DNA of 64,000 nucleotides from a virus. The translations under genes and the position numbers were made by a program. Below are positions 10,348-52,221 of this stretch, in pieces. Under the pieces are notes generated by a model. The model saw only the letters and a list, made by a program, of their open reading frames with translations. It ran no database searches and was not told the origin of the DNA. The stretch is taken from positions 1,064 to 65,063 of the IMG/VR virus record IMGVR_UViG_3300048911_000270; one strand, 5' to 3'. Position 1 is the first letter of the stretch. Each line of letters starts with the position of its first letter.

Positions 10348-11946
10348 TCAGTAGTCGTACTGCTCGCCCCAGAGGGAGGCGAGCTTCTTGTCTTCCTGGG
10401 CCGCCAGGGCTTCGACGTCGTCGCGGTCCGGGGAGTAGCTGTGACCCCGTTCACGGGCGAGGTCGATGTAACCCGTGGCGGAGTCGAGGAGCTGCCGCAC
10501 AACGGCTGCTGCGTCCACGGTCTCGATGCCGCCGATCGCGTTGGAGAACTCCAACGTGGCTGCGGGTCCGGCCAGCAGGACCGGACGGGCCAGGTCGACC
10601 AGCGCGGCCGGGACGCCCTTGCGGACGTAGTCGGCCTTGAGGCTGTCGAACTGCTGCGCGGCGAGCTGGGACTGAAGGACAGCCACCTGGTTGGACAGGG
10701 CGACGACCTCGGGGCCCGCCTCGTTGGACAGGGAGACCGCTCCGGCTCCGACCAGCTCGCGGGATTCGGCCGGGGCCTCCTCCTGGACGGCTGCCGCCTG
10801 CTCTTCAGCGATGGCGGCGGCCTCTTCGGATCCGGCGGCCTGTGCGGCAGCGTCCTTGGCCTCGGCCTCGGCCCACAGCTTGGCCATCTCCTCGTCAGAG
10901 AAGCCTTCCAGGGAGTCGTCCTCCCCGAGCGTGGGGTCTTCGGTGCCCAGGCCGCTGTTGAAGTCGCCGGAGGCCAGGCGTTCGACCAGTTCGTCGTCCG
11001 TCGGCTCGGCCGTAACCTCGGCGACGGCCTCGGTCTCCTCGGAGACGGTCTCTTCGGCGGTGGCCTCGGTCTCGTCGGTGTTCTCCGCGCCGGTCTCGGT
11101 GTCGAGGCCCAGTTCGGCGGCCAGCTCGTCCAGTTCGGCGTCCGAGAGGGCTTCGACGGCGGCGGCGATGTCCTCCTCGGAGGGGATCCCGGCCTCTGCT
11201 TCGGCGTCGGCGAGGAAGTCGGCTTCACCCGGCTCTTCGATGAGTTCGTCGTCGTCCACCTCGGCGGTGGCGGTTTCGTCGGTGTCGAAGGCGGAGCCGA
11301 AGATTTCCAGCTCGTCGTCCGTCATTCCGAGGGCGTCCAGCGCTTCGGGGGTCATTCCGGCAGCCGTGGCCACCTGCTGTAAAAGGTCGGCACGTGTGGC
11401 CATGTGCTCCAACTCCTCGTAAGAGGTTGCGGACAGGTCGATCACGTTTTCCGCCGGACCTCCGTTGGACAGCGCCACCTCTTCCCAGGTGCCGAGTCCT
11501 GGAATGACCGGGTCTAACGTGCCCAGAACATGCTGAAGCGCCCGGGGGAAATGTTTCCCGTCCGAGCGCTGGTAGTTTTCGAGGATGCGGGCGGACACGC
11601 CTAACTTCGGGTTCTCGTCCAGAACCTTGGCTGCGTCCGGGGTGACCTGGAAGACGGCGTACAGGCCGTCTTCATCGACCTCTACTGACTTGACCTCGCC
11701 ACGGAACCGCTCGGGGTCGAGGGTGTGGGAGTTGTTGTCGGGGGCCATCATGAAGGCCACCTGGTCGTAGGCGCCCTGATGGAAGGAGTTCGCCAGGTCG
11801 GTGAGGTAGGCGTCATCGAAGCGGATTTTGCGGCCCTTGTAGTTGATCGTGGCCTTCGGGAGGATCCTCTTGCGATACACCTTCTGGGACAGCGCGATGG
11901 CGGCACCGTCGTCCTGAGGGGACAACAGTAATTCGCTCTCGGGCAT
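10348..11946 (-). CDS. Capsid maturation protease (Mu gpI-like) fused to an acidic scaffold
   Basis: N-terminal ~170 aa SHTLDPERFRGEV...LGVSARI...HVLGTLDPVIPGL, followed by a very Glu/Ala-rich region. Confidence 0.8.
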   Translation of the reverse strand: MPESELLLSPQDDGAAIALSQKVYRKRILPKATINYKGRKIRFDDAYLTDLANSFHQGAYDQVAFMMAPDNNSHTLDPERFRGEVKSVEVDEDGLYAVFQVTPDAAKVLDENPKLGVSARILENYQRSDGKHFPRALQHVLGTLDPVIPGLGTWEEVALSNGGPAENVIDLSATSYEELEHMATRADLLQQVATAAGMTPEALDALGMTDDELEIFGSAFDTDETATAEVDDDELIEEPGEADFLADAEAEAGIPSEEDIAAAVEALSDAELDELAAELGLDTETGAENTDETEATAEETVSEETEAVAEVTAEPTDDELVERLASGDFNSGLGTEDPTLGEDDSLEGFSDEEMAKLWAEAEAKDAAAQAAGSEEAAAIAEEQAAAVQEEAPAESRELVGAGAVSLSNEAGPEVVALSNQVAVLQSQLAAQQFDSLKADYVRKGVPAALVDLARPVLLAGPAATLEFSNAIGGIETVDAAAVVRQLLDSATGYIDLARERGHSYSPDRDDVEALAAQEDKKLASLWGEQYDY

Positions 11947-12093: not shown

Positions 12094-13902
12094 TTATCGG
12101 CGTTCCAGGGAAATCCAACTGCCTGCGCCCAGCGTCGCCGTCTGCCCTGCGGTTCCCGAGGCGAACGTGACCGTCAGGTTCCCGGCCGTTCCGGTAGTGA
12201 TCAAGGACCCCGTGAGCATCGCCGTCTTGTTGGCGCCGGACCCGGACCATGTGTCGATCGAGGAGATGAGCGGGAAGCTCGTCGCCACCGAGTCGCCCCA
12301 GATCATCGTGGCGCCGGACGGCCCCGTGAAGCCGTGGGTGAAGGACACACCCGCCGGGGACTGGATGACCAGGCAGCCGCGCAGCAGGTACGTGGTGTTC
12401 GCCTCCACGGCGATGACGAGCTGCGTGGAGGCGGTCTGCGCGGTCACGGTGACGTTCTGGGCCGTGGACGCCAGCGCGGACAGGGTGTTCTGGATCACGA
12501 TGATCGCGCCGTTGGCCTGGCGCACCTTCAGGGTGTTGTTCTCGCAGTACATGACGGCGGCATTGGGGTTGGCGTTGGGGACCGTGGTGGCGTTCGTGAA
12601 CGCGATCAGTGCGCCGTTGCCTCCGCCGAACGATCCGGACGACCCCATGCGCAGGTTCGCCAACTGGCTGGTTCCGGAGGCCGTGAACGACGTGCCGGTG
12701 AAAGTCGTGCCCGTGAGGCCGCCGGTCAGGGTGCCGCCTGAGAGCTGGAGGTAGCGGGCGTCGCCCAGCGTCTGGGTCAGATAGCGGGCGTCGTTCGGGT
12801 CACCCGTGGTGCCACCGCCGATGTTGCCCCGGACCAGGCTGCCCGCGCCTGCGAGTTCCAGCGGGCCCTGCGCCAGGGTGCCGGAGACGATCAGGGTGTT
12901 GCCCTGGATGTTGTTGCTGCCGGTTCCTCCGGTGCTCTCCTCGCGGATGAGGGAGCGCCCGGCGCCGTTGGTCGGGGCCGAGCGGATGGTGTTGCCCTGG
13001 ACGACGTTGTTGATCGCACCGGACTCCAGGCGGATGCCGGAGGCGGTTCCGGCCGTGCCGAGGGCGCCGACGCCGAAGATCGTGTTGGAGGTGGCAGTGC
13101 AGTTGGGGGCGGCGATGAAGACGGCGTCCCCTCCGAGGCTGTCGAAGGTGCAGCCCAGGAGCTGTGTGCTGCCGACGGTCTGGATGCGGATGCCCTTGGC
13201 GGCGTTGGTGCCGCCGCCTACGAAGTTGCATTCCGAGACGGTCTGGAAACCGGCCAGGTCCAGGATGTGCACGGCGGTTCCGGTGCCGGTGCCGCCGGAG
13301 CCTCCGAGGGTTTCGAAGTCGCAGCCGATGATCTGGTTCTCGGTGCTGGACGACATGGTCAGGCCGCGTCCCGGGCCGGTCGAGCCGGTGGAGTTGTCGA
13401 AGAGGCAGCCGATGACGCGGTTGTTGTGGCCGAAGCTGCCGCCGGACATGCCGCCGAGGTACAGGGCGTCGTCGCGGCAGGCGGTGAAGTGGACGTTGTC
13501 GAACCGGCAGGCGATGGCTCCCAGGGCGTTGATGCCGCCGGAGCTGCCGAGGGTTCCCTGCGAGAGGCAGTTGCCGTCGATCGTCAGGTCCCGCATGGTA
13601 ATCCGGGTGTCGGCCCCGGTCATCTGGAAGATGTAGCAGTTCTTGTTGGCCTTGAGCTGAATGCGGGTGCCCCATCCGGCGCCGAAGATGCTCAGGCCCT
13701 CCCCGGCCGGGATGCTGATCGTGGAGGAGACCGCGTACGTACCGGCGGGTAAGTAGACGGAGGTGTGCGCGGAGGACGCGTCGTTGATCGCGGCCTGGAG
13801 TGCGGCCGTGTCGTCGGCCACCCCGTCGCCGATCGCTCCGTATGCGGGGCTCTTGACGTTGATGCCAGCGGACGCCCAGGGGCCCTCGATCATGTAAGCC
13901 AT
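12094..13902 (-). CDS. Tailspike/depolymerase-like right-handed beta-helix protein (pectate lyase 3-like)
   Basis: NVKSPAYGAIGDGVADDTAALQAAIN...VYLPAGTY followed by Gly/Asn/Thr-rich beta-helix repeats; start taken as ATG 13902. Confidence 0.8.
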   Translation of the reverse strand: MAYMIEGPWASAGINVKSPAYGAIGDGVADDTAALQAAINDASSAHTSVYLPAGTYAVSSTISIPAGEGLSIFGAGWGTRIQLKANKNCYIFQMTGADTRITMRDLTIDGNCLSQGTLGSSGGINALGAIACRFDNVHFTACRDDALYLGGMSGGSFGHNNRVIGCLFDNSTGSTGPGRGLTMSSSTENQIIGCDFETLGGSGGTGTGTAVHILDLAGFQTVSECNFVGGGTNAAKGIRIQTVGSTQLLGCTFDSLGGDAVFIAAPNCTATSNTIFGVGALGTAGTASGIRLESGAINNVVQGNTIRSAPTNGAGRSLIREESTGGTGSNNIQGNTLIVSGTLAQGPLELAGAGSLVRGNIGGGTTGDPNDARYLTQTLGDARYLQLSGGTLTGGLTGTTFTGTSFTASGTSQLANLRMGSSGSFGGGNGALIAFTNATTVPNANPNAAVMYCENNTLKVRQANGAIIVIQNTLSALASTAQNVTVTAQTASTQLVIAVEANTTYLLRGCLVIQSPAGVSFTHGFTGPSGATMIWGDSVATSFPLISSIDTWSGSGANKTAMLTGSLITTGTAGNLTVTFASGTAGQTATLGAGSWISLERR

Positions 13903-14456: not shown

Positions 14457-16253
14457 ATGACGGAGAATATCTCCCCTACCACCCCGGCAGCAACCACCCT
14501 CGCCGCCACCCCGGTTACGAAAGCCACCCTCGACACGGGCTGGCTGATGACCCGGGACAACGTCGTCCACGTGATCACGCGTGGACGCGACCCCCAGGAC
14601 TCCTCCCAGTACATCCTGGACGAAGAACCCTACGGTGATTTCGACATCGTGGCACTCGGCATCATCGCCGACGACAAGACCGAGCGCCGGGCCTGGGACG
14701 TCGTGATCGTCCGGCAGAGCGACGGCAAGGAGCTGCGCCGCATCCTGGACGAGAAAACCCTCGCGGACAGCAAGAGGCTGACGCTGTGGCTGACCTCGGC
14801 CGGAGTCTCCGTGATGTGCCCCGACGGCGCGCTCGGCGGCGGTGTTGCCCAGGGCGTGCGCCTGCTGCGCTACATCAACGCGCAGAAGCCGCCGGAGGCC
14901 ACGATCGTGGACCAGGTGGGCTACCACCCCGACCTGAACGTTTTCGTGGCCCACGAGGGCGTCCTGCGCCCGGGAGACACCGCGTTCGACCCCAAGGCGC
15001 CCTACCGTCCCTCTGCGCAGCTCTCCACGTCCGGGGACGCCCCCTTCGCCTACGGGTTCGCGCCGAAGGGTCTGGAGGAGGTCCGGGACGTGCTGGCGCA
15101 GGTGCTGACGTTCCATGACGAAACGCCCCTGGCGGTCGCTGCGTCGTGGATGGTGATGTCCCTGGTGCAGTCCGCGATCATCCAGCACACGTCGCATTTT
15201 CCCGTGATGGCCATCGAGGCGCCGTCGGGGTCGGGCAAGACCACGGGTGCCCTGTCGATGCTCCGGCAGTTGCTCACGGGCAACACCTCCGGGCCCTCCC
15301 AGGGAACGATCCCCGACGTCCGCCAGAAGATCGCGTCCACCCGGTCCGGATTCGTCCACATTGACGACCTGGACGACCCGAAAGCCGTGTTCGAGATGCT
15401 GCGGCTGTCGACGGCCGACGGCACCAAGATGATGCGCTCGCACGCCTCGGGGTTCATGGCCTCCCAGCACTCCCAGCTCACCGGAACGATTCTGCTGACC
15501 GGCGAGTACCTGGGCCTGCGGTCCCAGAAGGCGCTGGTGGACCGGATTCTGATGCTGGAGCTGACGGACCCCACCAACCGCAAGTCCCAGATCCCCGGCC
15601 GGGAGCACATCTCCCAGTGGGCCGACGTGACGGCCCTGTCCCGCCGCTACCCGGGCACGGTCGTTGCGGAGATCCTGCGCTGGCTGGACGACATCGAAGC
15701 GCTGCTGGACGAGGTCAAGCCGTGCCCGGGACGTCTGGGTGACAAGTACGCGACGGTGCTGGCCGGGGCCTGCTTCGTGGATCACCTGCTCGGCGACTCC
15801 AAGGCGTGGATCAAAAAGGGTGATACGTACGCGCAGGTGATGGCCTGGGTCGAAGAGGACATGCAGTTCGCGAACTCCTGGGACAACGCCCTGACGACCG
15901 AAATCCTCCCCTGGGCCCTGCACGAGTACGGCGGCTGGGCCGGGGTGGACATCAACGCCTACGAACCGGTCAAGATCTCCGGCAAGACCTTCGTCACCGC
16001 GCCCGGCTTCTACAAGGAGGACGGGGACAACGGGGAGGGCATCTTCATTCACCCGCGCACCCTCGCCGACGCCTGGCGGGCCTACGTCGGTCACAAGGCC
16101 GAGGACCGTGTCCACTCGTCCGCCGCCATCGTCGCGCAGGCCAAGATCGCCGGGTTCGTGGAGAAGGTCATCAAGGTCCCCGGCGGCAAGTCCGTCAAGG
16201 GCTGGATCCTCCACGGCGACAAGGTGGAGATCATCCGCCAGCGCGCAAGCTGA
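14457..16253 (+). CDS. Replication helicase/ATPase (primase-associated type)
   Basis: 598 aa; Walker A APSGSGKTT, Walker B FVHIDD; adjacent to the iteron element. Confidence 0.65.
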   Translation: MTENISPTTPAATTLAATPVTKATLDTGWLMTRDNVVHVITRGRDPQDSSQYILDEEPYGDFDIVALGIIADDKTERRAWDVVIVRQSDGKELRRILDEKTLADSKRLTLWLTSAGVSVMCPDGALGGGVAQGVRLLRYINAQKPPEATIVDQVGYHPDLNVFVAHEGVLRPGDTAFDPKAPYRPSAQLSTSGDAPFAYGFAPKGLEEVRDVLAQVLTFHDETPLAVAASWMVMSLVQSAIIQHTSHFPVMAIEAPSGSGKTTGALSMLRQLLTGNTSGPSQGTIPDVRQKIASTRSGFVHIDDLDDPKAVFEMLRLSTADGTKMMRSHASGFMASQHSQLTGTILLTGEYLGLRSQKALVDRILMLELTDPTNRKSQIPGREHISQWADVTALSRRYPGTVVAEILRWLDDIEALLDEVKPCPGRLGDKYATVLAGACFVDHLLGDSKAWIKKGDTYAQVMAWVEEDMQFANSWDNALTTEILPWALHEYGGWAGVDINAYEPVKISGKTFVTAPGFYKEDGDNGEGIFIHPRTLADAWRAYVGHKAEDRVHSSAAIVAQAKIAGFVEKVIKVPGGKSVKGWILHGDKVEIIRQRAS

Positions 16254-16310: not shown

Positions 16311-16532
16311 TCAGGAAGCGGGGTTCCGCTTCGCCAGCCGCTCGCGGACCGCCTTCTTCACCATGTCCGTGCGGCCCCGGCGCTGACGGGCCTCCTGCTC
16401 CCGGGCGAACGCCGCACGCTCCTCGGCGGTCACCGCCACCGGGATCACCTGCATCTGCATGCGCTCCTGGACCTGGGCGATGTGCTCGTCCAGCCCTGCC
16501 TGGTCGTTGTCGTTGCTCTCGGGACCGCTCAT
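16311..16532 (-). CDS. Small ribbon-helix-helix-like protein
   Basis: VIPVAVTAEERAAF...RTDMVKKAVRERL pattern resembling CopG/Arc. Confidence 0.45.
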   Translation of the reverse strand: MSGPESNDNDQAGLDEHIAQVQERMQMQVIPVAVTAEERAAFAREQEARQRRGRTDMVKKAVRERLAKRNPAS

Positions 16533-16583
16533 GAACCGTCTCCTAGTAGTTCCTGCCAGTGTAGAACCGCTTGCCTGTTCGGA

Positions 16584-19500
16584 CTAATCCCATTCGTCGG
16601 TGGGGACGATCTCCACGACGATGTAGCGCTTGCCGCTGTACGGCTTGGTTCCGTCCGGCGGGGACGCCTGGTCCGAGACCACCCGGTACTTGGTGCCGCG
16701 CGGCAGCAGGATCTCCTGCTCGTGGGAGAACTTGGATCCCGTCGCGTAGTTGGCGTCGATGACCTTGTGCCCCTTGGGGATGCGGACTTCCATCCACACG
16801 TTGCCGCTGAAGGCGTTCTTGTCCTTGGCCGTCGAACCGTACGCCAGGTCCTGGTAGACGTTGCCGGGGTCCATCGGCGGCGGGAAGTCCGGGAACTGGC
16901 CGTTGGTGCCCATCTTGCGGACCGTGACGAGGTCGTGGGCCAGCGGCGGCGCCTGCCGGAACGCGTCGTCCATGTGCTTGATGGTGTCGTCCCAGTCACC
17001 GCCCGTGGCCCCGACCGGCGGCGTGATCATGGTGCCGTCGTAGTCGAAGTGGCCGCGAAGCTGACCGTTGATCTCCGAGTGCTCGTGACCCGTGTACGTG
17101 TACACGGCGGACGACGCCTTGCCCTTGGGCTTCCAGCCGTTGCCGATGTCCACACCGTTGGTCGCGGCCGTGTACCCGGCGGCGTGTGCCCCGGCGAACT
17201 GCGTCTTGGTGTGCGCCAGGACCGCGTCTTCGTCGCCCGCCTCGGCGGCCGTCATCCCCTTGGGGACCGCCTTGGCCGGGTCGAAGGACGCCGGATCGAA
17301 CGGCGAGCTGTAGTGCGCGTCCCAGTCCTTCTTCGCCTGCTTGTACAGGGCGATCTGCGCCGGGGTCGCGTTCGGGCCGTGGGCCTGGTCGTACAGCTTC
17401 TTCAGCAGTACCGCGTTCGCCTTCTTGGTGATACCCAGGCCGGTGTACTTGACCTCCGGAGCCGTCACCACGTCGGGCGAAAGACCCTGGCTCTTGAGGT
17501 ACGTCTTCGGCGAGTTCTGGGCCTGCGCGATGTCCAGCGTGGACGCGCCCGCCTTCTCGGCGGCTTCCTTGAGGTCGATGGACTTGTCATAGTCCCAGTG
17601 GTCACTGTTCTGCGGCAGGTTGTGCTCGGCCAGGGCCTTGAGCGCCGCCTGCTTGGCGGAGAGCGAACCGGTACCGGACGGTGCCGCCGCAGCCGCAGCC
17701 GTCGCCGGGTTGTTCTGCTTGTCCAGTTCGGCCTGGGCCTCGGTGTTCCAGTGCTTGTTGATGACGCCCTGCTTGAAGTCAGCGAACGCCTGCGGGTTCT
17801 CGTTCTTCCACTTGGCGAACTCCTCCTTCGTGAAGTTCTTGCCGCCGTAGTTCTTGGCCATCCACTCGGCGGCGAGCTTGGCCTCCTTCTGCGTCTTGAA
17901 CTTGTGCGAGCCCATCTTCATGCCGTCGGCCTGCGTCACCGACCAGCCGGAGCCACCGAGGGCCTTGTGGACCACGAGGTTCTTGGGACCGGCCACGCCC
18001 TGGGACATGTGCGTGTTGCCGTCGGCGTCCTTGACCCCGTGCTCCACCTTGGACCACTTGGCCTTCGGCTTGAACGGGTCCGTCTTCGGGCCGGACGGGG
18101 CCGCCGGAGCCGACGCGTCCGCCTCAGGGGCCTTCTTCTCCGCCGGAGCAGCCGCGCTCTCCTTGGCCTTCAGCGCCTTCAGCGTCTCGTCCGACTTGTA
18201 GTACGCCGCGTGGATCTCGTCGGGGGTGGCCCCGGCGTTGATGGCGGCGTTCTCCAGCTTCTCGGACGTCTGGTGGTTCCAGTCGGCGGTGTTGTCGTCG
18301 TGCTCGTGCGCGGCGAGCGCCTTGAGCGCCTTCTCCTTCTCCGACAGGCCCTGGGGCGCCGGAGTAGGTGCAGAGGACTTGGAGACCTTGTCCAGGAACG
18401 CCTTCGGGTTCTGGATGGCGGCGATGACTTCCTTGGGGTCCGCGCCCAGGTCGATGGCCTTCTGCTTCAGGGTCGTGTATTCGCCGGGCTCCCACTCTTC
18501 CCCGGAGGCCATCTTCTCGGCCATGGTCTTGATCACGGCGTCCTTCGCCGACAGACCGGAGTCCTTCGCAGAAGGCGACGGGGCCGAGGGGCTGTTGGCG
18601 AGGAAGGCGTCCGGGTCCTTGACCACGGAGGTGATTTCCGCCTTCGTGGCGCCCGCCGCGAGAGCCTTCGACTTTGCGACCTTGTAGTCGGTCTCGTTCC
18701 AGTCGTTGTCATCGATCTTCATCATCTCGGCGATGGCCTTGAGCGCGGCGTCCTTCTCCGCCGAACCGCCGGAACCGGCCTCCGGGGCATCGGCAGCCTT
18801 GGCCGCCTTCTGCGCCGGAGCAGCGCCCTGCTTGCCCTTGTCGGGCAGGTCGTCGTAGAGCTTCTGGAAGTCCTTGCCCAGGCTGTTCTTGTGGGCAACG
18901 ATCTTGTCGAGGAACTTCTCCTCGGTGTCGACGCCGCCCGGGAACTTGTGGCCGCTCGCGAGGGCCTGCTTGGCGTACGGGGCGAAGAGCCGCTTGAACT
19001 CCTCGTCCGGCATGTCCTGGATTGCCTTGATCGTTTTGGCGAACTCGTTGTCCCCGGACGGGTCCGGGAGCTGGATCTTGCCTTCCTTGGCAGCCTGCCA
19101 CAGGGCGGGGTACACGGCCGAGTGCGCGTTCGGGCCGTACGTGGTCAGCGGGTCGCCCTTGGACTTGCCGCCGTCGCCCTTGTACGGGTCGCCGTTGGAG
19201 GCGCCCACGGTGTACTTGAACGCCTGGCCCTGGTCGATCGACATGAGGCCGGTCGACGGGGACTTGATCCACTGGCCGTTGTGGGAGTCCTGGTTGCCGG
19301 TGGCGTAGTCCAGCACCTGGTGCTGGAGCATCTTCATGATGTCCTCGGGGGGCATCTTCGCGGCCATGTCGGCGTTGAACTTGTAGCCCGGGAACGCGTC
19401 CTCGGCGCCGGGGATCATGCCCTGGAGGTGACCGTCCTTGGTCTTCACGAACACCGGGGTCGGCAGGCCGACCTTGCGGTGCAGCGCGGCGACGGCGGGG

Positions 19501-21677
19501 TCAAGGCTGCGGGAGTACTCGTCCGTCTTCGCCAGCCACAGGTTCCCGTCCTCGTCCTTCATCAGCTTGCTGCCGTGGGAACCGAGCGTCTTGCCGGTGT
19601 ACGTCAGCTTGCCGACCGGCTTGAGAACCTTGCCGTCGTCGGCCGCGTCGACCTTCTTGACCGGAGCGGACGGAGCCTCGGCGGCCTTCTTGGTCGCGGC
19701 GGCGTCGGCCGCGTCACCGTGGTGCTGGACCAGGTTCTTGAACTTGTTGACGGCCCAGTCCTTGGGCTCGTCCTTGTCCTGCTCCGCCTTGAGGGCCTTC
19801 GCAGCCGCCTGACCGGCCGCCTGGTGGTCCTTGTGGTCCCCGGTGATCTCGGCGATGGACGACAGCGCGTTCGCCTTCATGGCGGGGCTGTCCGCCTTGT
19901 CGGCGAGTTCCGCGACCTTCTTGTAGTTCTCGATCGCCTTGTCTTTGTCCCCGGCCGTCAGGGCGTCGTCAGCGGCGTTGAACGCCTGCCCGGCCTGCTG
20001 GAGCGCCTGCGACTTCTCCGACTCGGCCTTGGCGGCAGCAGTGGCCTGCTCGCCGTGCTGGGTCGCCTTGGCCATGTGGCCCTGGGCGGCCTCCTTGTGG
20101 TCCGCCGCCAGGCCCTGGAAGCCCGCGTCCAAGGCGGCCTTCTCCGCGTTGGAGTGCAGCAGGGCCGCTTCCAGGTGCTTGGCGTTCAGCGTGTCGTCGC
20201 TGGCCTTGGCGTAGGTCGCCTCGTGCACCTCGGACGTCTTGGCGTGCGCCTTCTTGCCGTGGGCGTCGTACGCCTGCATCTTCGCGAGCGCTTCGGCGTT
20301 CTTCTTGTCGACCTCGGCGGCCTTGGCCTTGTACGAGGCGGCGTTCGCCTTGTGGTCCTCGGCCTCGTCGTGCAGACCGGCGGCCTTCGCAGCCTGGTGC
20401 GCCTTCTCGTACTTGGCGGCGGCGTCCTTGAACGCGGTCGACGCCGAACCCGAGTCCCCCAGCGCGTGGCCCTTGTTGGCGGCCTCGTCGGCGGCCTTGG
20501 CGTGCTTGGCGATCTCGGCCTGGGCCGCCTTCTGCTTGGCCTCGTGCTCGTCGTGCTGCTTCTGGAGCCCGGCCGCGATCTCCGCGTGCTTGGCCTCGTG
20601 CTGCTTGTGCTCGTTGACGGACTCGTCGTTGCCGATCTGCCCGTGCGCGTTCGCAGCCTGCCCGTGCGCCTGGGCGGCCTGGTTGTGCGCGTGCGCCTGC
20701 GCGGCCAGCGGGGTGTCACCCTCCTCGCTGGCAATCGACGCGCTCTTGGACTTCTTGTAGGCGCCGTCCGACATGGTGGCGGCGGCCTTGTCCAGTGAGT
20801 CGTGCGTCTTCTGCTGGTTCTCGGCGATCTTCTCGTGCTTGGCCACCGCTCCCGCGTGGGCCTCGCCGACGAACTTGTTCCCGGCCTCCTCGTTGGCGTG
20901 CTGCGCGTTCAGGTGCGCGGCAGCAGCCTTCGTGTGCAGCTCGGCGGCCTGCTTCGGCGTGTGGTTGCCGCCCTTGATCGAGGCGGTGAGTTCGTTCGCC
21001 TCGGCCGTGAGCTTGGTCGCCTTGGCCTTGGCGTCCGCCAGCTTCTTGGCCGCCGCAGCCTTCTCGGCCTCCAGCGCCTTGGCCGCGTCCTCCTTCGCAC
21101 CCTGCTCCAGCTTCGTCGCCTTCGAGGCGTGGATCGCGGAGTGCGCGGAGTGCGTGAGGACACCCGACTTCAGGCCGTCCTTGCCCATGCCCTGGAAGTG
21201 GTGGGCGGCGTCGGCGTGCTGAGTCGCCGCGACCTTGTGGGCCGCCGCCAGAACGGCCTTGGAAGCGCCGGACTCTTCGAGCTTGTGCACCATGTTGGTG
21301 GCGCGCTCGGCCTTCTGGACGGCTGCCTTCGCCGCTTCCTGCTTGGCCGCGACACCCGCCGCGCCCTTCTTGACCTCGGCCTCCCAGTCCGCCTTGGAGG
21401 CGTACCGGTTGACGGCCTTGAAGGAGATCTTGCCGTCGGCGCCCTTGACGAAGTGGCCGGTGGTGTGACCGCCGGAGATGTGGCCGTGCTGACGGGCGAG
21501 ACCGCCGCCGGACAGACCACGGGAGGGGATCAGGGGGTTGATCAAGATCCATCCGTGGCGGTATCTAAATGCAAGGGCGCCAGCGGGATTTTTCGAGAAA
21601 TCTAAGGTGTGAGCGTCAACAACCCTCACATTCTTAGGTAACACCCCGACGAACGCTAACTCATATTCCACGTTCAC
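16584..21677 (-). CDS. Giant head-cargo protein: His/Ala-rich region, HipA/PI3-4K-like kinase, four helical repeats, C-terminal ADP-ribosyltransferase
   Basis: Kinase: LWLAK...VLDYATGNQDSHNGQW...SIDQGQAF. ART (R-S-E): YTYTG...INGQLR...VTVRKM...YGSTA...EQEILLPRGTKYRV. Confidence 0.78.
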   Translation of the reverse strand: MNVEYELAFVGVLPKNVRVVDAHTLDFSKNPAGALAFRYRHGWILINPLIPSRGLSGGGLARQHGHISGGHTTGHFVKGADGKISFKAVNRYASKADWEAEVKKGAAGVAAKQEAAKAAVQKAERATNMVHKLEESGASKAVLAAAHKVAATQHADAAHHFQGMGKDGLKSGVLTHSAHSAIHASKATKLEQGAKEDAAKALEAEKAAAAKKLADAKAKATKLTAEANELTASIKGGNHTPKQAAELHTKAAAAHLNAQHANEEAGNKFVGEAHAGAVAKHEKIAENQQKTHDSLDKAAATMSDGAYKKSKSASIASEEGDTPLAAQAHAHNQAAQAHGQAANAHGQIGNDESVNEHKQHEAKHAEIAAGLQKQHDEHEAKQKAAQAEIAKHAKAADEAANKGHALGDSGSASTAFKDAAAKYEKAHQAAKAAGLHDEAEDHKANAASYKAKAAEVDKKNAEALAKMQAYDAHGKKAHAKTSEVHEATYAKASDDTLNAKHLEAALLHSNAEKAALDAGFQGLAADHKEAAQGHMAKATQHGEQATAAAKAESEKSQALQQAGQAFNAADDALTAGDKDKAIENYKKVAELADKADSPAMKANALSSIAEITGDHKDHQAAGQAAAKALKAEQDKDEPKDWAVNKFKNLVQHHGDAADAAATKKAAEAPSAPVKKVDAADDGKVLKPVGKLTYTGKTLGSHGSKLMKDEDGNLWLAKTDEYSRSLDPAVAALHRKVGLPTPVFVKTKDGHLQGMIPGAEDAFPGYKFNADMAAKMPPEDIMKMLQHQVLDYATGNQDSHNGQWIKSPSTGLMSIDQGQAFKYTVGASNGDPYKGDGGKSKGDPLTTYGPNAHSAVYPALWQAAKEGKIQLPDPSGDNEFAKTIKAIQDMPDEEFKRLFAPYAKQALASGHKFPGGVDTEEKFLDKIVAHKNSLGKDFQKLYDDLPDKGKQGAAPAQKAAKAADAPEAGSGGSAEKDAALKAIAEMMKIDDNDWNETDYKVAKSKALAAGATKAEITSVVKDPDAFLANSPSAPSPSAKDSGLSAKDAVIKTMAEKMASGEEWEPGEYTTLKQKAIDLGADPKEVIAAIQNPKAFLDKVSKSSAPTPAPQGLSEKEKALKALAAHEHDDNTADWNHQTSEKLENAAINAGATPDEIHAAYYKSDETLKALKAKESAAAPAEKKAPEADASAPAAPSGPKTDPFKPKAKWSKVEHGVKDADGNTHMSQGVAGPKNLVVHKALGGSGWSVTQADGMKMGSHKFKTQKEAKLAAEWMAKNYGGKNFTKEEFAKWKNENPQAFADFKQGVINKHWNTEAQAELDKQNNPATAAAAAAPSGTGSLSAKQAALKALAEHNLPQNSDHWDYDKSIDLKEAAEKAGASTLDIAQAQNSPKTYLKSQGLSPDVVTAPEVKYTGLGITKKANAVLLKKLYDQAHGPNATPAQIALYKQAKKDWDAHYSSPFDPASFDPAKAVPKGMTAAEAGDEDAVLAHTKTQFAGAHAAGYTAATNGVDIGNGWKPKGKASSAVYTYTGHEHSEINGQLRGHFDYDGTMITPPVGATGGDWDDTIKHMDDAFRQAPPLAHDLVTVRKMGTNGQFPDFPPPMDPGNVYQDLAYGSTAKDKNAFSGNVWMEVRIPKGHKVIDANYATGSKFSHEQEILLPRGTKYRVVSDQASPPDGTKPYSGKRYIVVEIVPTDEWD

Positions 21678-21693: not shown

Positions 21694-22191
21694 TCAGCGT
21701 GCCGTCTTCGAGCGGTAGTAAGAGCGGTCCGCTGTCCGCTTTGCTTCCAGTTCCTCGGGCGTCCAGGACGCCCGACGTGCGGCTGCCTTGTCCCTCATGC
21801 AGGCCAGGCAGTAGCGCCGGTTCTTCTTGTCCCGACGCGTGTTCTCCGGGGTGTACTCGTGCTGTTGAGGGCAGTGAGTCTTTCGACCGTTCCCGTTCTG
21901 GGTGCCCCGTGCTGCGTGCATGCGACGCTTGTTCTCTTCTGGTGTCACCCATTCGAGGCAGTCCGGATTTACACAGTTGCGGACCCTGCACAGGTGATCC
22001 GGCTCCAGCCCTTCCGGGCAAGGACCGACCAGCAGTTCCCAGACCAGCCGGTGAACCCGCCAAATCTTCAGCTTCCACGTCACCACGGCGTAGCCCGATT
22101 TGCTGGTATCTCCTGTCCAGCGCCAGCAGATCCCATCGGGTTCTACTCGCGCCCACAGTCGTTCCTCGCGCTGAGCATCCGTCACCATCAT
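21694..22191 (-). CDS. HNH homing endonuclease
   Basis: CWRWTG...GYA...VHRLVWE...DHLCRVRNCVNPDCLEWVTPEEN; KTHCPQQHEY; TATACT 6 nt before ATG 22191 suggests a leaderless transcript. Confidence 0.88.
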   Translation of the reverse strand: MMVTDAQREERLWARVEPDGICWRWTGDTSKSGYAVVTWKLKIWRVHRLVWELLVGPCPEGLEPDHLCRVRNCVNPDCLEWVTPEENKRRMHAARGTQNGNGRKTHCPQQHEYTPENTRRDKKNRRYCLACMRDKAAARRASWTPEELEAKRTADRSYYRSKTAR

Positions 22192-22230: not shown

Positions 22231-24123
22231 TCAGAGGCACTTTTTGCCCTTCTGACGCCGCTTCTTCTGCGCCTTGATCGCCGCATCCGCCAGGTAGCGC
22301 TTCGGATACTTCGTGGTCAGGCTGTTGACTGTGAGCCGTGCCCCGTCCTGGGAACTCCCGGTGGGTACGGTGACCTGCTCCGATGCCATGGGCTGGGACA
22401 GGTTGACGTTGTTGCGGAGGTTGTCCTTGATCTCTTCCTGCTGGGCCTCGTAGTGGTCCAGCAGCCGGACCTGGGTCGGGGTTAGCGGCCGACCGGCCTT
22501 CTTGTCCGCGAGGGCCTGACGGGTGGCGTCGGAGATCAGCTTCTGCTTGGCCTTGGCCTTCGCCGCCTTCTCCTTCGCCGCCTGCTTCTGCGCCCGGAGC
22601 TTGGCCACCTCCGCCTTCTTCTTGGCCATCTCCTTGGCGTGCGCGGCCTTCTTGGCGGCAGCCGCCTTGGCCCGCGCCGCCCGCTTGGCCTCGGCCTCGT
22701 GGTGCTTCTTGGCGGAAGCGGCCTTCTTCGATGCCTTCTTGGCGTCGGCGGTGGCCTTGTTCTTGTACGCCTGGGCGATGGCCGCCTTGGTGGCGTCGGT
22801 GTGACCGGTCATGTCCTTGATCTCCTGCGCAGACTTGTCTTTCTGCGAGGGACCGACGGGGTTGCCGTTCTTGTCGACGGGGACCCAGTTGTGTTTCCAG
22901 CCGACGGCGCCCGGGGGGAGCTGGTGCTTGCCGTGCGGGTTGTCCTTCGGCTTCTTGTCCTTGGCCTTCGGCTTGTGCGCCTTCTCCGGCCGGGGGCCGG
23001 AGGATCCCGCGATATCCGCCGGGACGGCCAGGTCGATCGCAGAGGAGCCGTCCAGGACGGCTCGCAGGAACGTCATCGGCTGGGACAACGTCACCTCCTC
23101 CCCCGGGTCGGATGCTGCGTGGGTAACGGTGACCACGGGGAACTCTCCTTCGTGTGAGACGTGTGTGACGTGCAGGCGGGTGCCGCGCGGCAGGACGGTT
23201 TCGTCTCCCCGGACGGGGATGATCGGGGCGCCCTTGCGGCCTTGGATGCGGAAGAGAACCTTTTTGCCGGTCTCGTGTCCGCGTTCGTGCATGTAGTACT
23301 CCGCCACGTCCCGGGAGAACGCGGCGGATCCGTAGCCCTTGTCGTGCAGGACGGAGCCGGGCGTGAGCGCGGCGATCTGGTCGTCGGTGAGGGAGGCCCC
23401 GCGCCACAGGTCGGCGTCCCGGCTCAGGGACGCCTTGGCGGCCACCGAGTCGAGTCCCTTGTTACGGGCCTCCTCCTCGGCGTCCAGGGCTTCCCCGTTG
23501 CGCAGCTTGCGGTTGATCCGCAGCGTGTCCTTGTCGAAGGCCACGTAGTCGTTGACGGCCGCGTGGTCACTCTTGCCCAGAACGGCTTCCCGCAGATGGG
23601 TGTTGCCGCCCGGCAGGGAGTCTGTGTCGGCGTCCGATACGGCCTTGCCGTGCACGGCGACGTTGGCCCAACTGCCCTTGTGGTCAACGGTCGGGTAGGG
23701 GCGGTCTTCGCCCTCTTCCTCTTCGGCCATGGCCAGCAGAGCCTTCATGGCGTCCATGGCCGACCACTTGCCGTCCGGGGTGCGGGGCTCGTCGGGGTTG
23801 AAGTTCGCCAGCTTGACCGTACGGCCCTTGTTCGGTGTCGCGTGGGCCCTGGCCTTGGAGGCTTCCCAGTCGGCCAGGGCGGCGGATGCGGCAGCGCGTA
23901 CTTCGGGGCGGACGTTGCCGCGCCCGGAGGCCCAGTTTTTGATGGTGCCGAGGGCCGTGGCGATGGCCCGGGACTTGTCCATGCCCCGCTTGGTCATCAG
24001 GCTGTGCGCGATGTTTTGCACGTACGGCGGAAGGCTCAGGGAGCGGTCCCCGAAGAGACCGGGTCCTCCCGGCTTCCCGAGCGGGTGCGGTGTGACCGCT
24101 AACGCCGCTGTCTCGGCACTCAT
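22231..24123 (-). CDS. Head-cargo protein with central ADP-ribosyltransferase domain
   Basis: FNPDEPRTPDGKW motif; ART: VNDYV...INRKLR...LWRG...HDKGYGSAA...DETVLPRGTRLHV; Lys/Ala-rich C-terminus. Confidence 0.72.
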   Translation of the reverse strand: MSAETAALAVTPHPLGKPGGPGLFGDRSLSLPPYVQNIAHSLMTKRGMDKSRAIATALGTIKNWASGRGNVRPEVRAAASAALADWEASKARAHATPNKGRTVKLANFNPDEPRTPDGKWSAMDAMKALLAMAEEEEGEDRPYPTVDHKGSWANVAVHGKAVSDADTDSLPGGNTHLREAVLGKSDHAAVNDYVAFDKDTLRINRKLRNGEALDAEEEARNKGLDSVAAKASLSRDADLWRGASLTDDQIAALTPGSVLHDKGYGSAAFSRDVAEYYMHERGHETGKKVLFRIQGRKGAPIIPVRGDETVLPRGTRLHVTHVSHEGEFPVVTVTHAASDPGEEVTLSQPMTFLRAVLDGSSAIDLAVPADIAGSSGPRPEKAHKPKAKDKKPKDNPHGKHQLPPGAVGWKHNWVPVDKNGNPVGPSQKDKSAQEIKDMTGHTDATKAAIAQAYKNKATADAKKASKKAASAKKHHEAEAKRAARAKAAAAKKAAHAKEMAKKKAEVAKLRAQKQAAKEKAAKAKAKQKLISDATRQALADKKAGRPLTPTQVRLLDHYEAQQEEIKDNLRNNVNLSQPMASEQVTVPTGSSQDGARLTVNSLTTKYPKRYLADAAIKAQKKRRQKGKKCL

Positions 24124-24566: not shown

Positions 24567-25187
24567 CTATTTCCTTCTCAGATGTTCCGGAAGGGCCGTC
24601 ACCACTGGTTTTCCTTCGTAGGCGGGAAGGGGGTAGCAGCGGCAGCGCGGGTGTCTTCCTCCGGGGTGCAGTCCTTCCGGGGGTGTGCTCGCGGAGTAGT
24701 TCTTTCCGATAAGCCACCGACAGTCGGGGGTGGTGTTGTCGTCCAGAATTCCGCCCCAGCCGAGAGTGTCGCTGGATGTGGTGGTCTGCATGTTCACGGA
24801 GCCCTTGGCGGCGGCTATCCGGCGGGCGCACGCCTGTTGGTGCTGGGCGAACAGAGCCTTCTCCCGGGCGAGGGCTTTGCCCAGGTCAGGGGCGTCTGCG
24901 AGGCGTCGGACGGCTGCGGCGAGGTAGGCGGCCCGGTAGCGCATGTTCTCCCGGCGGGCTGCGGCGACGGGGTCCGTGCCTTTTGCGAGGGCCTTCTTAC
25001 CGGGCTTGTACTTCATCGCGGCGAGGATCCCGAGGACGAGCTTTTTCGGGGTTTTCAGCACAGCGGAAATAGCCTGTATTGCGGCGATGAGAGGAGGTCC
25101 CGCCAATAACACGGCGAGAACAGCCGCGATCTCGGCATCGTGCTGAGAAGGGGCCTTTTGGGCTATTTGCTGGTCTTGCTCGTCCAT
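24567..25187 (-). CDS. MuF-like head morphogenesis protein
   Basis: WGGILDDNTTPDCRWL...HPGGRHPRCRC; directly after portal. Confidence 0.8.
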   Translation of the reverse strand: MDEQDQQIAQKAPSQHDAEIAAVLAVLLAGPPLIAAIQAISAVLKTPKKLVLGILAAMKYKPGKKALAKGTDPVAAARRENMRYRAAYLAAAVRRLADAPDLGKALAREKALFAQHQQACARRIAAAKGSVNMQTTTSSDTLGWGGILDDNTTPDCRWLIGKNYSASTPPEGLHPGGRHPRCRCYPLPAYEGKPVVTALPEHLRRK

Positions 25188-32706: not shown

Positions 32707-33207
32707 TTACCAGCCCATCTTGTCTGCACAGATGGGGCCGATGCCCTTCGCGACGGACTCTGCGTTCGTCAGGAGCTTGGAGCAGATGCAGCAGTGTCCC
32801 GTCTTTTTGCCGAACTTCGCCGCCTGCGCCTCCGTCAGCTTGTCGGCCAGCGTCAGGGTCTTGACGATGCCCGGGGCGTAGGCCCACTTGGAGTGCCCGC
32901 CGGTCCAAACCTTCGCGTACTTCGCGCCCGACGTCTTCGAGGTCTGGACCTTGTAGACGTTGTCGCCTACGCAGTAGAAGCCCTCAGGGACGATCTCCGT
33001 GGCAACCGCCTTGACCTGCGTGCTCTGCGTGCCCGAGATGAAGGGGCACTTCTTGAGCTTGGTGATCATGCTCGACGCCTGGGTCTTCGTCAGGTCCGAG
33101 GAGAATCCGGCGGCCAGGCCCTTGGGGGCGAGACGCGAGGCCAGCAGGGACTTGATGTAACCCTCCTGCGCGGAGGTCATCTTGTCGGAAGCGAAGGTGA
33201 GTGCCAT
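32707..33207 (-). CDS. DUF6011-like Zn-binding protein
   Basis: C-terminal CCICSKLLTNAESVAKGIGPIC; downstream of the motif. Confidence 0.65.
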   Translation of the reverse strand: MALTFASDKMTSAQEGYIKSLLASRLAPKGLAAGFSSDLTKTQASSMITKLKKCPFISGTQSTQVKAVATEIVPEGFYCVGDNVYKVQTSKTSGAKYAKVWTGGHSKWAYAPGIVKTLTLADKLTEAQAAKFGKKTGHCCICSKLLTNAESVAKGIGPICADKMGW

Positions 33208-35406: not shown

Positions 35407-36486
35407 ATGACCTTCACCACCCAGCAGAAGAAGCTGTCCTCCCTCATCGGCGGCGCCCTCGGAGACGCCCTCGGCTACAGCCGCGAGTTCTCCCCCGTCG
35501 GCCAGCACCTCAAGAACATCCCCGGCCGCGACTGGCGCAACGCCGACTTCGACAACGCACCCAACGCCGCGCACTACCAGGACGAGACCGGGCACGCGCT
35601 CGTCTCCGACGACACACAGATGACCATCGCCACGGGCCGGGCGCTCCTCGCCGCCGAGAACGGTTTTCGCATCCAGTACACCAACAACCTCGCGGCCGAA
35701 CTGGCACGAAAGTATGTCGCCTGGTCCAAGCACCCCGACAACACACGGGCCCCGGGCGGGGCGTGCATGAGCGCCTGCCGGAAGCTGGACGACGACCGGT
35801 CCTGGGAGACCGAGCTGGGTACCTGGATCCGGGCCACGGACATCGACACGATGGGCTGCGGCGCCAACATGCGCGTTGCGCCGATCGGCCTGTACATGAA
35901 CCCGGGCGCCGGATCCCTGATCGATATCGCCTACCTGTCCTCGGCCATGACGCACGCCCACCCTGCCGCGCTCGCCTCGGCCGCGCTCACCACGGCCGCC
36001 GTCACGGGCGCCTTCGACGGGATGAACGGCCGGGAGATCCTGGACATGCTGCTGGACATGTGCGAGATGTCCCAGTTCATTCACTACCCGGAGACCGTCC
36101 TCGGCCCCCTGTGGGAGCTGTCCCAGTTCGACTCGGCCCTGTCCTACCTCCAGGCCGGATACCAGCGCTGCGGCTTCTACCTGCGCCAGGCGGACAGGGC
36201 GCTGCGGAACGGCTGGAAGGGCCAGAACGACCCGTGCATCATCACGGGTGAGGGCTGGACCGCGCCGGAAGCCCTCGCGGGCGCGATGCTGTGCACCGTG
36301 GGCCTGTGGGACGAGCCCGTGCAGGTTCTCCAGCGCGCGGCCGTCTCCAAGGGCGACAGCGACTCCCTGGCGTCCATCGCGGGCAACATCCGTGGGGCGG
36401 CCGGAGTCGAGTGGCCGGAGCACCTGGTGAGCCGTCTGGAGCAGGGCCCCGTACGGGAGCTGCACGCCCTCGCCAAGGCCCTGTAA
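35407..36486 (+). CDS. ADP-ribosylglycohydrolase (DraG/ARH family)
   Basis: GGALGDALG, SDDTQMT, GCGANMRVAP, MTHAHP, GDSDSLASIAG. Confidence 0.92.
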   Translation: MTFTTQQKKLSSLIGGALGDALGYSREFSPVGQHLKNIPGRDWRNADFDNAPNAAHYQDETGHALVSDDTQMTIATGRALLAAENGFRIQYTNNLAAELARKYVAWSKHPDNTRAPGGACMSACRKLDDDRSWETELGTWIRATDIDTMGCGANMRVAPIGLYMNPGAGSLIDIAYLSSAMTHAHPAALASAALTTAAVTGAFDGMNGREILDMLLDMCEMSQFIHYPETVLGPLWELSQFDSALSYLQAGYQRCGFYLRQADRALRNGWKGQNDPCIITGEGWTAPEALAGAMLCTVGLWDEPVQVLQRAAVSKGDSDSLASIAGNIRGAAGVEWPEHLVSRLEQGPVRELHALAKAL

Positions 36487-52089: not shown

Positions 52090-52221
52090 ATGTTCGTGTA
52101 CGACGAACGCCTTCAGATGAACGTCCTCGCCGACGGCACCGCACTGATCGACACCGGGCACGCCCTCGGCTACAGCATCTGCCAGGGCGGCGACGACGAC
52201 GTCCCCCGGGAAGATGACTAG
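52090..52221 (+). CDS. Putative ATP-grasp RiPP (graspetide) precursor peptide
   Basis: 43 aa, MFVYDERLQMNVLADGTALIDTGHALGYSICQGGDDDVPREDD; YD..xQ leader and acidic tail; RBS AGAAGG; stop overlaps the ligase ATG. Confidence 0.8.
   Translation: MFVYDERLQMNVLADGTALIDTGHALGYSICQGGDDDVPREDD

What the first reader, a model, noticed from the sequence alone, without database searches (positions are those of the whole stretch)
16584..21677. 1697 aa head cargo combining a HipA/PI3K-like kinase and an ADP-ribosyltransferase
Seen: N-terminal His/Ala repeats (A.H..AA..H), a kinase at about 19200-19630 (DYATGNQDSHNGQW...IDQG), four ~55 aa helical repeats (K.A.K..AE...W...K.KA...GA...I) and a C-terminal R-S-E ART at about 16590-17110. 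It is encoded in the head module near MuF and portal. Known: T4 Alt and MuF-fused toxins are injected effectors. Inference: a two-enzyme injected effector that phosphorylates and ADP-ribosylates host targets before phage transcription starts.
Basis: partly seen in the sequence, partly recalled or inferred. Interest (0 to 1): 0.74.

Follow-up and report, generated by a model that had tools for sequence, protein, structure and literature searches.

The report
Phage head kinase–ADP-ribosyltransferase with antidote genes
A soil-actinomycete phage encodes, among its head genes, a 1697-residue protein carrying two intact-looking enzymes (an atypical kinase and an arginine ADP-ribosyltransferase) plus genes that look like its antidotes; it is probably injected with the DNA, a known strategy, but this kinase family has not been studied.

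Summary
Observation confirmed. The ORF (16584-21677, minus strand) lies in the head module of a Streptomyces-phage-like genome. Residues 683-950 fold as a PI3K/HipA-class kinase (pLDDT 91; Z 12.8 PI4KIIa, 11.9 CtkA); K717, D797 and D815 are invariant in 146 homologues. The C-terminus is an R-S-E ART with E-x-E (Z 17.8 to C3). Four 57-aa repeats and the His periodicity are real.

Added here: the next gene (73 aa) co-folds into the ART's NAD cleft (0.72 vs 0.00 controls). The genome encodes an ADP-ribosylhydrolase. The protein has almost no arginine (1.0% vs 6.5%), a depletion that follows ART presence in six within-genome comparisons and points to a promiscuous Arg-ART. It has no MuF domain; it starts with a putative prohead-protease site and a short tag used by swappable cargo in related phages.

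Packaging, injection, activity and targets are inferred, not shown. It works like T4 Alt and the Bxa/Bsi/BAH MuF toxin. The kinase family is large (about 1600 clusters), unannotated in cultured phages, and this scan has already noted the kinase+ART pair on other DNA many times. New variant of a known kind.

The parts
16584..21677 (-). 1697-aa multidomain head-module protein (P0001)
   Evidence: ORF and translation; 15 close full-length homologues of 1474-2036 aa in the same gene context where checked
21384..21677 (-). N-terminal leader (aa 1-98): putative prohead-protease site (L-D-F-S, aa 25-28) followed by a conserved tag (F-R-Y-R-H-G-W, from aa 37); inferred packaging signal
   Evidence: Most conserved part of the protein (85% over aa 51-100); motif kept in 13 of 13 full N-termini; same tag heads unrelated cargo modules in relative G004 and sits inside Marky gp10
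19668..21380 (-). Ala/Lys/His-rich helical repeat region (aa 100-670), variable length; function not determined (spacer or ejection-compatible stalk, inferred)
   Evidence: 28% Ala, 13% Lys, 7% His; His i,i+7 excess; conservation 19-61%; not folded here
18828..19631 (-). PI3K/PI4K/HipA/CtkA-fold atypical kinase (aa 683-950); K717, D797, H799, Q802, D815
   Evidence: AF2 pLDDT 91, pTM 0.90; Z 12.8 PI4KIIa, 12.5 ATM, 11.9 CtkA, 10.1 HipA; K717, D797, D815 the only invariant columns of 146 sequences
18174..18761 (-). Three tandem ~57-aa helical repeats (aa 973-1030, 1043-1100, 1112-1168)
   Evidence: repeat 3 folds as a small helical unit, pLDDT above 90
17712..18065 (-). Conserved alpha/beta domain of unknown function (aa ~1205-1322)
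   Evidence: 52-64% identity across relatives; folds confidently as a strand-rich unit plus helices; no family found
17484..17660 (-). Fourth helical repeat (aa 1340-1398)
16587..17231 (-). R-S-E ADP-ribosyltransferase of the Alt/VIP2/C3 type (aa ~1483-1697); R1587, S1615, E1653-x-E1655
   Evidence: PF03496 E 6e-13; Z 17.8 C3bot2, 16.2 VIP2; R1587, S1615, E1655 invariant in 86 sequences, E1653 in at least 90%
16311..16532 (-). 73-aa ORF, candidate structural immunity protein for the ART
   Evidence: A 67-81 aa ORF follows the ART in all 9 loci examined; predicted complex scores 0.72 vs best control 0.00 and covers N1537, R1541, R1587, S1615
35407..36486 (+). ADP-ribosylglycohydrolase (ARH/DraG family), candidate enzymatic antidote
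   Evidence: PF03747 E 2e-46; present in 3 relatives and in Marky, McProf, Phrappuccino; absent from the complete relative without ART
22231..24123 (-). 630-aa upstream head-module protein built of motif-delimited modules; carries an optional, divergent second ART-like cassette (about 23100-23810)
   Evidence: Cassette present only here and in L010, bounded by the motif on both sides; PF03496 E 7e-4, under cut-off; fused to the ART protein in Marky gp10
10348..11946 (-). Mu gpI-like prohead protease/scaffold; the likely processing enzyme
   Evidence: Atlas features 0.95 and TM 0.87 to Mu-like_Pro clusters; invariant H74, S118; 8 motif copies, flanking the protease domain
24567..25187 (-). Short stand-alone MuF-like minor head protein
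   Evidence: PHROG minor head/head morphogenesis, E about 2e-3; orthologues carry PF04233

Best explanation
A head-packaged, two-enzyme effector with its own antidotes. (1, shown by context) It is a gene of the head module, made with the capsid proteins. (2, inferred) Its N-terminal tag recruits it to the prohead and the Mu-type protease clips the leader. (3, inferred) In the producing cell the 73-aa protein plugs the ART's NAD cleft and the ADP-ribosylhydrolase removes stray modifications. (4, inferred) It is ejected with the DNA into a cell that lacks these antidotes. (5, predicted from residues and composition) The ART adds ADP-ribose to arginines of many host proteins and the kinase phosphorylates host proteins, most likely blunting defence systems or redirecting host machinery in the first minutes. 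(6, inferred) Newly made hydrolase and immunity protein then end the burst.
For: Folds and invariant catalytic residues. E-x-E in 96 of 98 ART domains where the motif was read. Arginine is 1.0% of the protein, 4 in aa 100-1480, against 6.5% in the proteome; cargo vs own TerL/portal/capsid R%: 1.0/5.9 here, 1.5/7.6 McProf, 1.3/6.2 Onyinye, 2.0/6.4 Marky after the tag, but 5.7/5.1 and 7.1/7.1 in two cargoes without an R-S-E ART. Predicted ART/73-aa complex 0.72, best of 3 controls 0.00; that mark was reached by 58 of 80 solved and 2 of 110 mismatched pairs; runs share at least 54% of contacts, partner pLDDT at least 67. Hydrolase co-occurs. The kinase+ART pair is MuF-fused in 66 of 193 family members. 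Precedents: T4 Alt is a core protein clipped by gp21 (PMC9958956) and injected (PMC5512222); Bxa is a promiscuous Arg-ART neutralised by Bsi and BAH (PMC11699363); T7 kinase disarms defences broadly (PMC13645617).
Against: The protease motif was defined after seeing the sequences, so its enrichment is partly circular. The tag is not exclusive to MuF-less members (21 of 94 vs 12 of 72, p 0.43). Hydrolase linkage has exceptions: Onyinye has the ART and no hydrolase; Phrappuccino has a hydrolase and gp195 has no R-S-E ART by Pfam. No antidote for the kinase was found. The kinase's closest solved fold is a lipid kinase. The family-wide Arg comparison is not corrected for kinship or GC.
Confidence: 0.62

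Rival explanations
1. Packaged and injected, but the kinase acts on a lipid or small molecule (phosphatidylinositol, which actinobacteria have, or a nucleotide signal), not on proteins.
For: Best structural match is PI4KIIa (Z 12.8) and PI3/PI4 kinases fill the Foldseek list; one family member carries Pfam LepB_N.
Against: Protein kinases ATM, CtkA, Fam20 and actin-fragmin kinase score within about 1.5 Z units. The family also occurs in Desulfobacterota, Gammaproteobacteria and Bacillota records, most of which lack phosphatidylinositol (own knowledge).
Confidence: 0.17
2. It acts in the cell that makes it (late counter-defence that protects head assembly, or a prophage toxin-antitoxin/exclusion unit) and is never injected.
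For: Position among late genes alone does not prove packaging; Iyer et al. 2022 name this alternative for head-linked ARTs (PMC9503650). The genome has a tyrosine recombinase gene.
Against: An adjacent protein predicted to block the active site argues against action in the producer. Direct MuF fusion of the same enzyme pair in many relatives and the leader shared with the protease's own flanks point to the capsid.
Confidence: 0.1
3. A virion-delivered antibacterial toxin: particles released by lysogens kill or stall non-immune neighbours (the high-toxicity MuF model of Jamet et al. 2017).
For: Toxin-then-small-gene layout, predicted immunity and hydrolase mirror Bxa/Bsi/BAH and the MuF model.
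Against: The ART, tag, small gene and hydrolase are kept in Marky, whose annotation lists no integrase or repressor; a phage that must grow in the cell it injects gains little from killing it.
Confidence: 0.07
4. Mainly a structural core or DNA-pilot protein whose enzyme domains are decayed passengers.
For: Over half the chain is Ala/Lys-rich helix or repeat; relatives manage without the kinase (Marky) or without both enzymes (G004).
Against: Catalytic residues are the only invariant columns at about 32% mean identity; arginine avoidance and antidote genes make sense only for an active ART.
Confidence: 0.04

Closest known systems
Bxa / Bsi / BAH of Bacteroides stercoris prophage, MuF toxin family (PMC11699363; Jamet 2017, PMC5576092)
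   Same: Head-module gene with C-terminal Arg-type ART, small downstream protein predicted in the active site, and an ARH-family hydrolase in the same phage.
   Different: No MuF domain here; a kinase is added; the hydrolase lies 14 kb away on the other strand instead of beside the toxin; nothing here is tested at the bench.
T4 Alt (Alt/VIP2 family of R-S-E ARTs; PMC9958956, PMC5512222, PMC9503650)
   Same: R-S-E ART, not MuF-fused, putative protease-clipped leader, inferred packaging and injection.
   Different: More than twice as long, with kinase, repeats and an unknown domain; actinophage, probably siphovirus; targets unknown; no sequence match to Alt was obtained.
Polyvalent proteins of phages (Iyer et al. 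2017, PMC5512222)
   Same: Large multi-enzyme protein in the packaging locus with swappable domains; relative G004 carries a HExxH-containing cargo in the same slot.
   Different: The paper's ARTs are mainly H-Y-D type and its kinases lack the C-terminal lobe and occur in Verrucomicrobia/Bacteroidetes; this kinase has a full helical C-lobe of the PI3K/HipA type.
Streptomyces phage Marky gp10 and ten relatives, annotated 'ADP-ribosyltransferase' or hypothetical (cluster BH, from memory)
   Same: Same gene order, same tag (65-75% identity), closest ART (45-46%), small downstream gene, hydrolase (gp78).
   Different: No kinase; the upstream 630-aa-type protein and the ART protein are one polypeptide.
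Mycobacteriophage McProf gp54, Onyinye gp16, Phrappuccino gp195
   Same: Carry the same kinase domain (34-36% identity, E 1e-24 to 1e-33); McProf and Onyinye also the R-S-E ART.
   Different: Annotated only as minor capsid/ART fusion, ART or hypothetical; the kinase is unnamed. Their ARTs fall in another clade.
HipA/HipT/CtkA kinases and T7 protein kinase (PMC13645617)
   Same: Same fold class as HipA and CtkA; T7K is the functional model of a broad anti-defence kinase that limits itself by autophosphorylation.
   Different: Under the Pfam HipA_C cut-off; metal-binding Asn is Gln here (Q 93, N 87 in the family); T7K is a different family made early, not a head protein.

Membership tests
R-S-E (Alt/VIP2/C3-like) ADP-ribosyltransferases | ART fold of the C2/C3/VIP2 type | tested here: met
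   PF03496 above cut-off; Z 17.8, rmsd 2.4, 172 aligned to C3bot2; Z 16.2, rmsd 3.0, 173 aligned to VIP2
R-S-E (Alt/VIP2/C3-like) ADP-ribosyltransferases | Catalytic R, S-T-x and E; E-x-E for arginine targets | tested here: met
   R1587, S1615-T1616, E1653-Q-E1655
R-S-E (Alt/VIP2/C3-like) ADP-ribosyltransferases | NAD-dependent transfer to a target | not testable with these tools
   Indirect only: arginine depletion
PI3K/PI4K/HipA-fold atypical kinases | Two-lobed PI3K-like kinase fold | tested here: met
   Z 12.8, rmsd 3.9, 220 aligned to PI4KIIa; Z 11.9, rmsd 4.8, 214 aligned to CtkA
PI3K/PI4K/HipA-fold atypical kinases | ATP-binding Lys, D-x-H-x-x-N catalytic loop, DFG-position Asp | tested here: met
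   K717, D797, D815 invariant; H799 at least 90%; the Asn position is Gln here and in half the family
HipA toxin family (PF07804) | Match over the HipA_C curated cut-off and a HipB/HipS partner | tested here: not met
   No match for P0001; best member E 0.07; no such partner among neighbouring genes. It shares the fold only.
MuF polymorphic toxins | N-terminal MuF domain on the toxin chain | tested here: not met
   No PF04233 in P0001 or its 15 close homologues; MuF is a separate 206-aa gene
MuF polymorphic toxins | C-terminal toxin domain followed by a small immunity ORF, in the head module | tested here: met
   Layout in 9 of 9 loci; binding predicted, not shown
Polyvalent proteins (Iyer 2017) | Two or more biochemically distinct effector domains in one chain in a packaging locus, with variable architecture | tested here: met
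   Architectures MuF-K-A 63, K-A 54, K 36, K-K 29 and others among 193; kinase and ART have different nearest relatives
Polyvalent proteins (Iyer 2017) | The kinase type described there (C-terminal subdomain lost) | tested here: not met
   Model has a full helical C-lobe; paper text
T4 Alt-like injected internal proteins | Packaged in the head, clipped by the prohead protease, ejected with DNA | not testable with these tools
   Motif and context evidence only

The most novel reading that the evidence does not exclude
Actinophages of this lineage run a MuF-independent, protease-site-plus-tag cargo slot that loads interchangeable enzymes into the capsid, and this member delivers a pre-made PI3K/HipA-fold kinase together with a promiscuous Arg-ART as a time-limited, general strike on host defences, switched off by a phage hydrolase and immunity protein. 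It would be the first virion-injected broad-spectrum kinase and would give a function to about 1600 unannotated protein clusters.
Probability: 0.35. Interest if true: 0.8.

Novelty: new variant of a known kind. Interest (0 to 1): 0.56.

Why it matters
The role of head-linked ARTs in actinophages is described as unclear (PMC7302621) and that of MuF toxins as unknown (PMC11699363). This locus makes the question testable: cultured phages on harmless hosts supply natural contrasts (Marky on S. griseus: ART only, with small gene and hydrolase; Onyinye on M. smegmatis: kinase plus ART, no hydrolase). It also flags a large kinase family that current annotation misses, a predicted new ART immunity protein, and arginine depletion as a simple sequence sign of an active Arg-ART.

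Tried and rejected
Sequence-only searches did not name the kinase: Pfam, NCBIfam and phmmer on PDB gave nothing for P0001; profiles gave only weak hits. The 1438-aa plus-strand ORF 16482-20798 is a shadow of the real gene: mirrored GC pattern, 4-10 stops in homologues. Antibiotic-inactivation reading (APH-like kinase, Arr-like ART): the APH hit was E 0.61, no APH was among the top 50 fold matches, and Arr is not R-S-E type (own knowledge). Own promoter for the 73-aa gene: a TAnnnT hexamer in 6 of 8 loci, but 29 of 73 genes of this genome have one and no consensus promoter was found: inconclusive. Tag and MuF mutually exclusive: not supported. Partner phosphatase PF22784: none in 5 genomes. Repeats resemble CMD/AhpD helical hairpins only at Z about 5: not significant. 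Domain at aa 1205-1322: no Atlas or phage-record hit; it was not folded alone, so no claim of a new fold. Marky gp11 is not detectably homologous to the 73-aa family. Gain or loss of the kinase relative to Marky is unresolved (open fork, quick tree). Ten literature searches found no paper on this kinase family; the library lacks most subscription journals.

Full report
Setting. The window is part of an 89.5-kb single-contig virus record, about 70% complete, 65% GC. On the minus strand the order is terminase (26915-28621), Mu-type portal (25276-26856), short MuF-like gene (24567-25187), 107-aa gene, 630-aa gene, HNH, the 1697-aa gene, a 73-aa gene, a primase-like gene on the other strand, a beta-helix gene, protease/scaffold (10348-11946), a 153-aa head gene and major capsid. 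Tape-measure and tail genes follow. The nearest cultured relatives are Streptomyces phages such as Marky (terminase 41%, portal 43%, protease 57%, capsid 40%). The host is therefore probably a soil actinomycete; this is inferred, not shown.

Observation. The ART matches PF03496 at aa 1523-1689 (E 6e-13). Four repeats score E 1e-12 to 1e-14 in leave-one-out tests and vary from 1 to 6 copies in homologues; His i,i+7 pairs occur 11 times against 2.8 expected. The kinase extends further than stated, to about 18828. The long plus-strand ORF over the gene is a shadow.

Kinase. No library names it by sequence. A 146-sequence alignment folds at pLDDT 91 and matches PI4KIIa (Z 12.8), ATM (12.5), CtkA (11.9), Fam20 (11.5) and HipA (10.1). 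The only invariant columns are K717, D797 and D815, the ATP lysine, catalytic base and metal aspartate. The metal-binding Asn is Gln here and in half the family. The profile finds 1596 cluster representatives at E 0.001 or better. Of 193 fetched, 123 carry an R-S-E ART and 68 a MuF domain. Cultured mycobacteriophages McProf, Onyinye and Phrappuccino have it, annotated only as ART fusion or hypothetical. It also occurs in bacterial genomes of several phyla. The fold does not tell protein from lipid substrate.

ART. The C-terminal model (pLDDT 87) matches C3bot2 (Z 17.8) and VIP2 (16.2). R1587, S1615 and E1655 are invariant in 86 sequences and E1653 nearly so. E-x-E marks arginine-modifying members (established knowledge of the family). 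Composition gives independent support: 17 Arg in 1697 residues (1.0%; proteome 6.5%), only 4 in aa 100-1480, with Lys at 11.6%; all close homologues have 0.7-1.5%. Against each phage's own terminase, portal and capsid proteins, Arg is 3- to 6-fold lower in the four ART-bearing cargoes and not lower in two cargoes without an R-S-E ART; in Marky gp10 the drop begins at the tag (6.3% before, 2.0% after). I read this as selection against self-modification by a promiscuous Arg-ART. The family-wide version (p 2e-7) is not corrected for kinship or GC and carries less weight.

A 67-81 aa ORF follows the ART in all nine loci examined. Following a lead from note e1-5349189, I co-folded the 73-aa protein with the ART: score 0.72, best of three controls 0.00; the mark was reached by 58 of 80 solved and 2 of 110 mismatched pairs; runs share at least 54% of contacts and partner pLDDT is at least 67. 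The interface includes N1537, R1541, R1587 and S1615, the NAD cleft. This supports binding but does not show it. The genome also encodes an ADP-ribosylglycohydrolase at 35407-36486 (E 2e-46). It is present in three relatives and in Marky, McProf and Phrappuccino, and absent from a complete relative (G004) that lacks ART and kinase. Its tblastn hits cover only 28 of 50,697 phage records, 8 of them among the 12 kinase-bearing records. Onyinye and Phrappuccino are exceptions in opposite directions. The trio mirrors Bxa, Bsi and BAH.

Packaging without MuF. The chain has no MuF domain. A four-residue motif, hydrophobic-x-L/F-S/A, occurs 8 times in the protease/scaffold (1.9 expected), flanking the protease domain, 4 times in the 630-aa protein, and twice in the first 28 residues here and nowhere else in the chain. 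I defined the motif after seeing the sequences, so those counts are partly circular. Better evidence is positional: the optional ART-like cassette of the 630-aa gene starts and ends at the motif, and in G004 the same slot holds different cargo modules, most starting at the motif plus a short tag, including the tag that heads this protein. The protease resembles Mu gpI. T4 Alt is the precedent for a clipped, packaged ART. Cleavage and packaging remain inferences.

Modularity. In a quick tree the ART groups with Marky gp10 (no kinase) and P0100 (kinase) at 97% SH-aLRT, apart from the MuF-fused ARTs, while the kinase's nearest outside relatives include MuF-fused proteins. So the two enzymes have been exchanged separately; the direction is unresolved.

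Mechanism. Most likely (0.62): made late, held off by the 73-aa protein and hydrolase, tagged into the prohead, clipped, ejected with the DNA, then a short burst of broad arginine ADP-ribosylation and phosphorylation that blunts defences or redirects host machinery, ended by newly made antidotes. Shown here: folds, conserved active sites, gene context, composition bias. Predicted: the immunity complex. Inferred: packaging, injection, timing, targets. Rivals: lipid or small-molecule kinase (0.17), action in the producer cell (0.10), inter-bacterial toxin (0.07), structural protein with dead enzymes (0.04).

Comparison and novelty. It works like T4 Alt and the Bxa-type MuF toxins. It is a member of the R-S-E ART family and fits the polyvalent-protein definition, but it is not a MuF toxin (no MuF) and not a HipA (under cut-off). 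Head-linked ARTs are well documented; the kinases described for polyvalent proteins are another type, and I found no paper on this family. This scan has noted the kinase+ART pair at least eight times on other DNA and this same protein in another record. What this locus adds is the MuF-free tagged form, a predicted immunity protein of no known family, the hydrolase link, the arginine signature and cultured comparators. Verdict: new variant of a known kind, interest 0.56.

Noticed in passing
window 23100-23810 (-), inside 22231-24123: Optional second ART-like cassette, present only here and in L010. It keeps Arg and a final Glu but has a shortened catalytic loop, a long tree branch, normal Arg content (6.6%) and no small gene behind it; possibly inactive or of other specificity.
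   Followed up: partly
window 21694-22191 (-): HNH endonuclease inserted between the 630-aa and 1697-aa genes, which abut or overlap in most relatives; intact in L063, a 3' remnant in L010.
   Followed up: yes
window 32707-33207 (-): 166-aa protein with the lowest Arg content of the genome (0.6%, Lys 12.7%), 2 kb from the hydrolase gene; may be an early protein shielded from the ART.
   Followed up: no
window 14457-16253 (+): Primase/helicase-like gene (phrog_5177, E 2e-92) on the opposite strand inside the head module, conserved there in all close relatives.
   Followed up: partly
window 12094-13902 (-): Beta-helix (pectate lyase-like) gene between the primase-like gene and the protease, present in only some relatives.
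   Followed up: no
L067:7500-15400 (G004): A complete relative fills the same slot with four Arg-rich polyproteins of motif-delimited modules, one with an HExxH motif, and has no ART, kinase or hydrolase.
   Followed up: partly
window 62250-63203 (+): ArdC-N plus metallopeptidase gene (PF08401 E 9e-11, PF06114), the hub domains of polyvalent proteins, as a stand-alone gene.
   Followed up: no
window 52090-53119 (+): Short peptide ORF followed by an ATP-grasp-like gene, possibly a peptide-modification pair; already noted by the scan.
   Followed up: no
window 56381-57112 (+): Tyrosine recombinase catalytic domain (phrog_1, E 1e-24); whether the phage is temperate was not tested.
   Followed up: no
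P0077, P0081, P0121, P0141; L012, L030, L048: The kinase family includes 2400-6350 aa proteins with several kinase and ART copies, MuF fusions in bacterial genomes, and 500-830 aa forms outside head modules, one near an ARH-like gene.
   Followed up: partly
window 16482-20798 (+): 1438-aa antisense ORF; a codon-bias shadow of the real gene, broken in homologues.
   Followed up: yes
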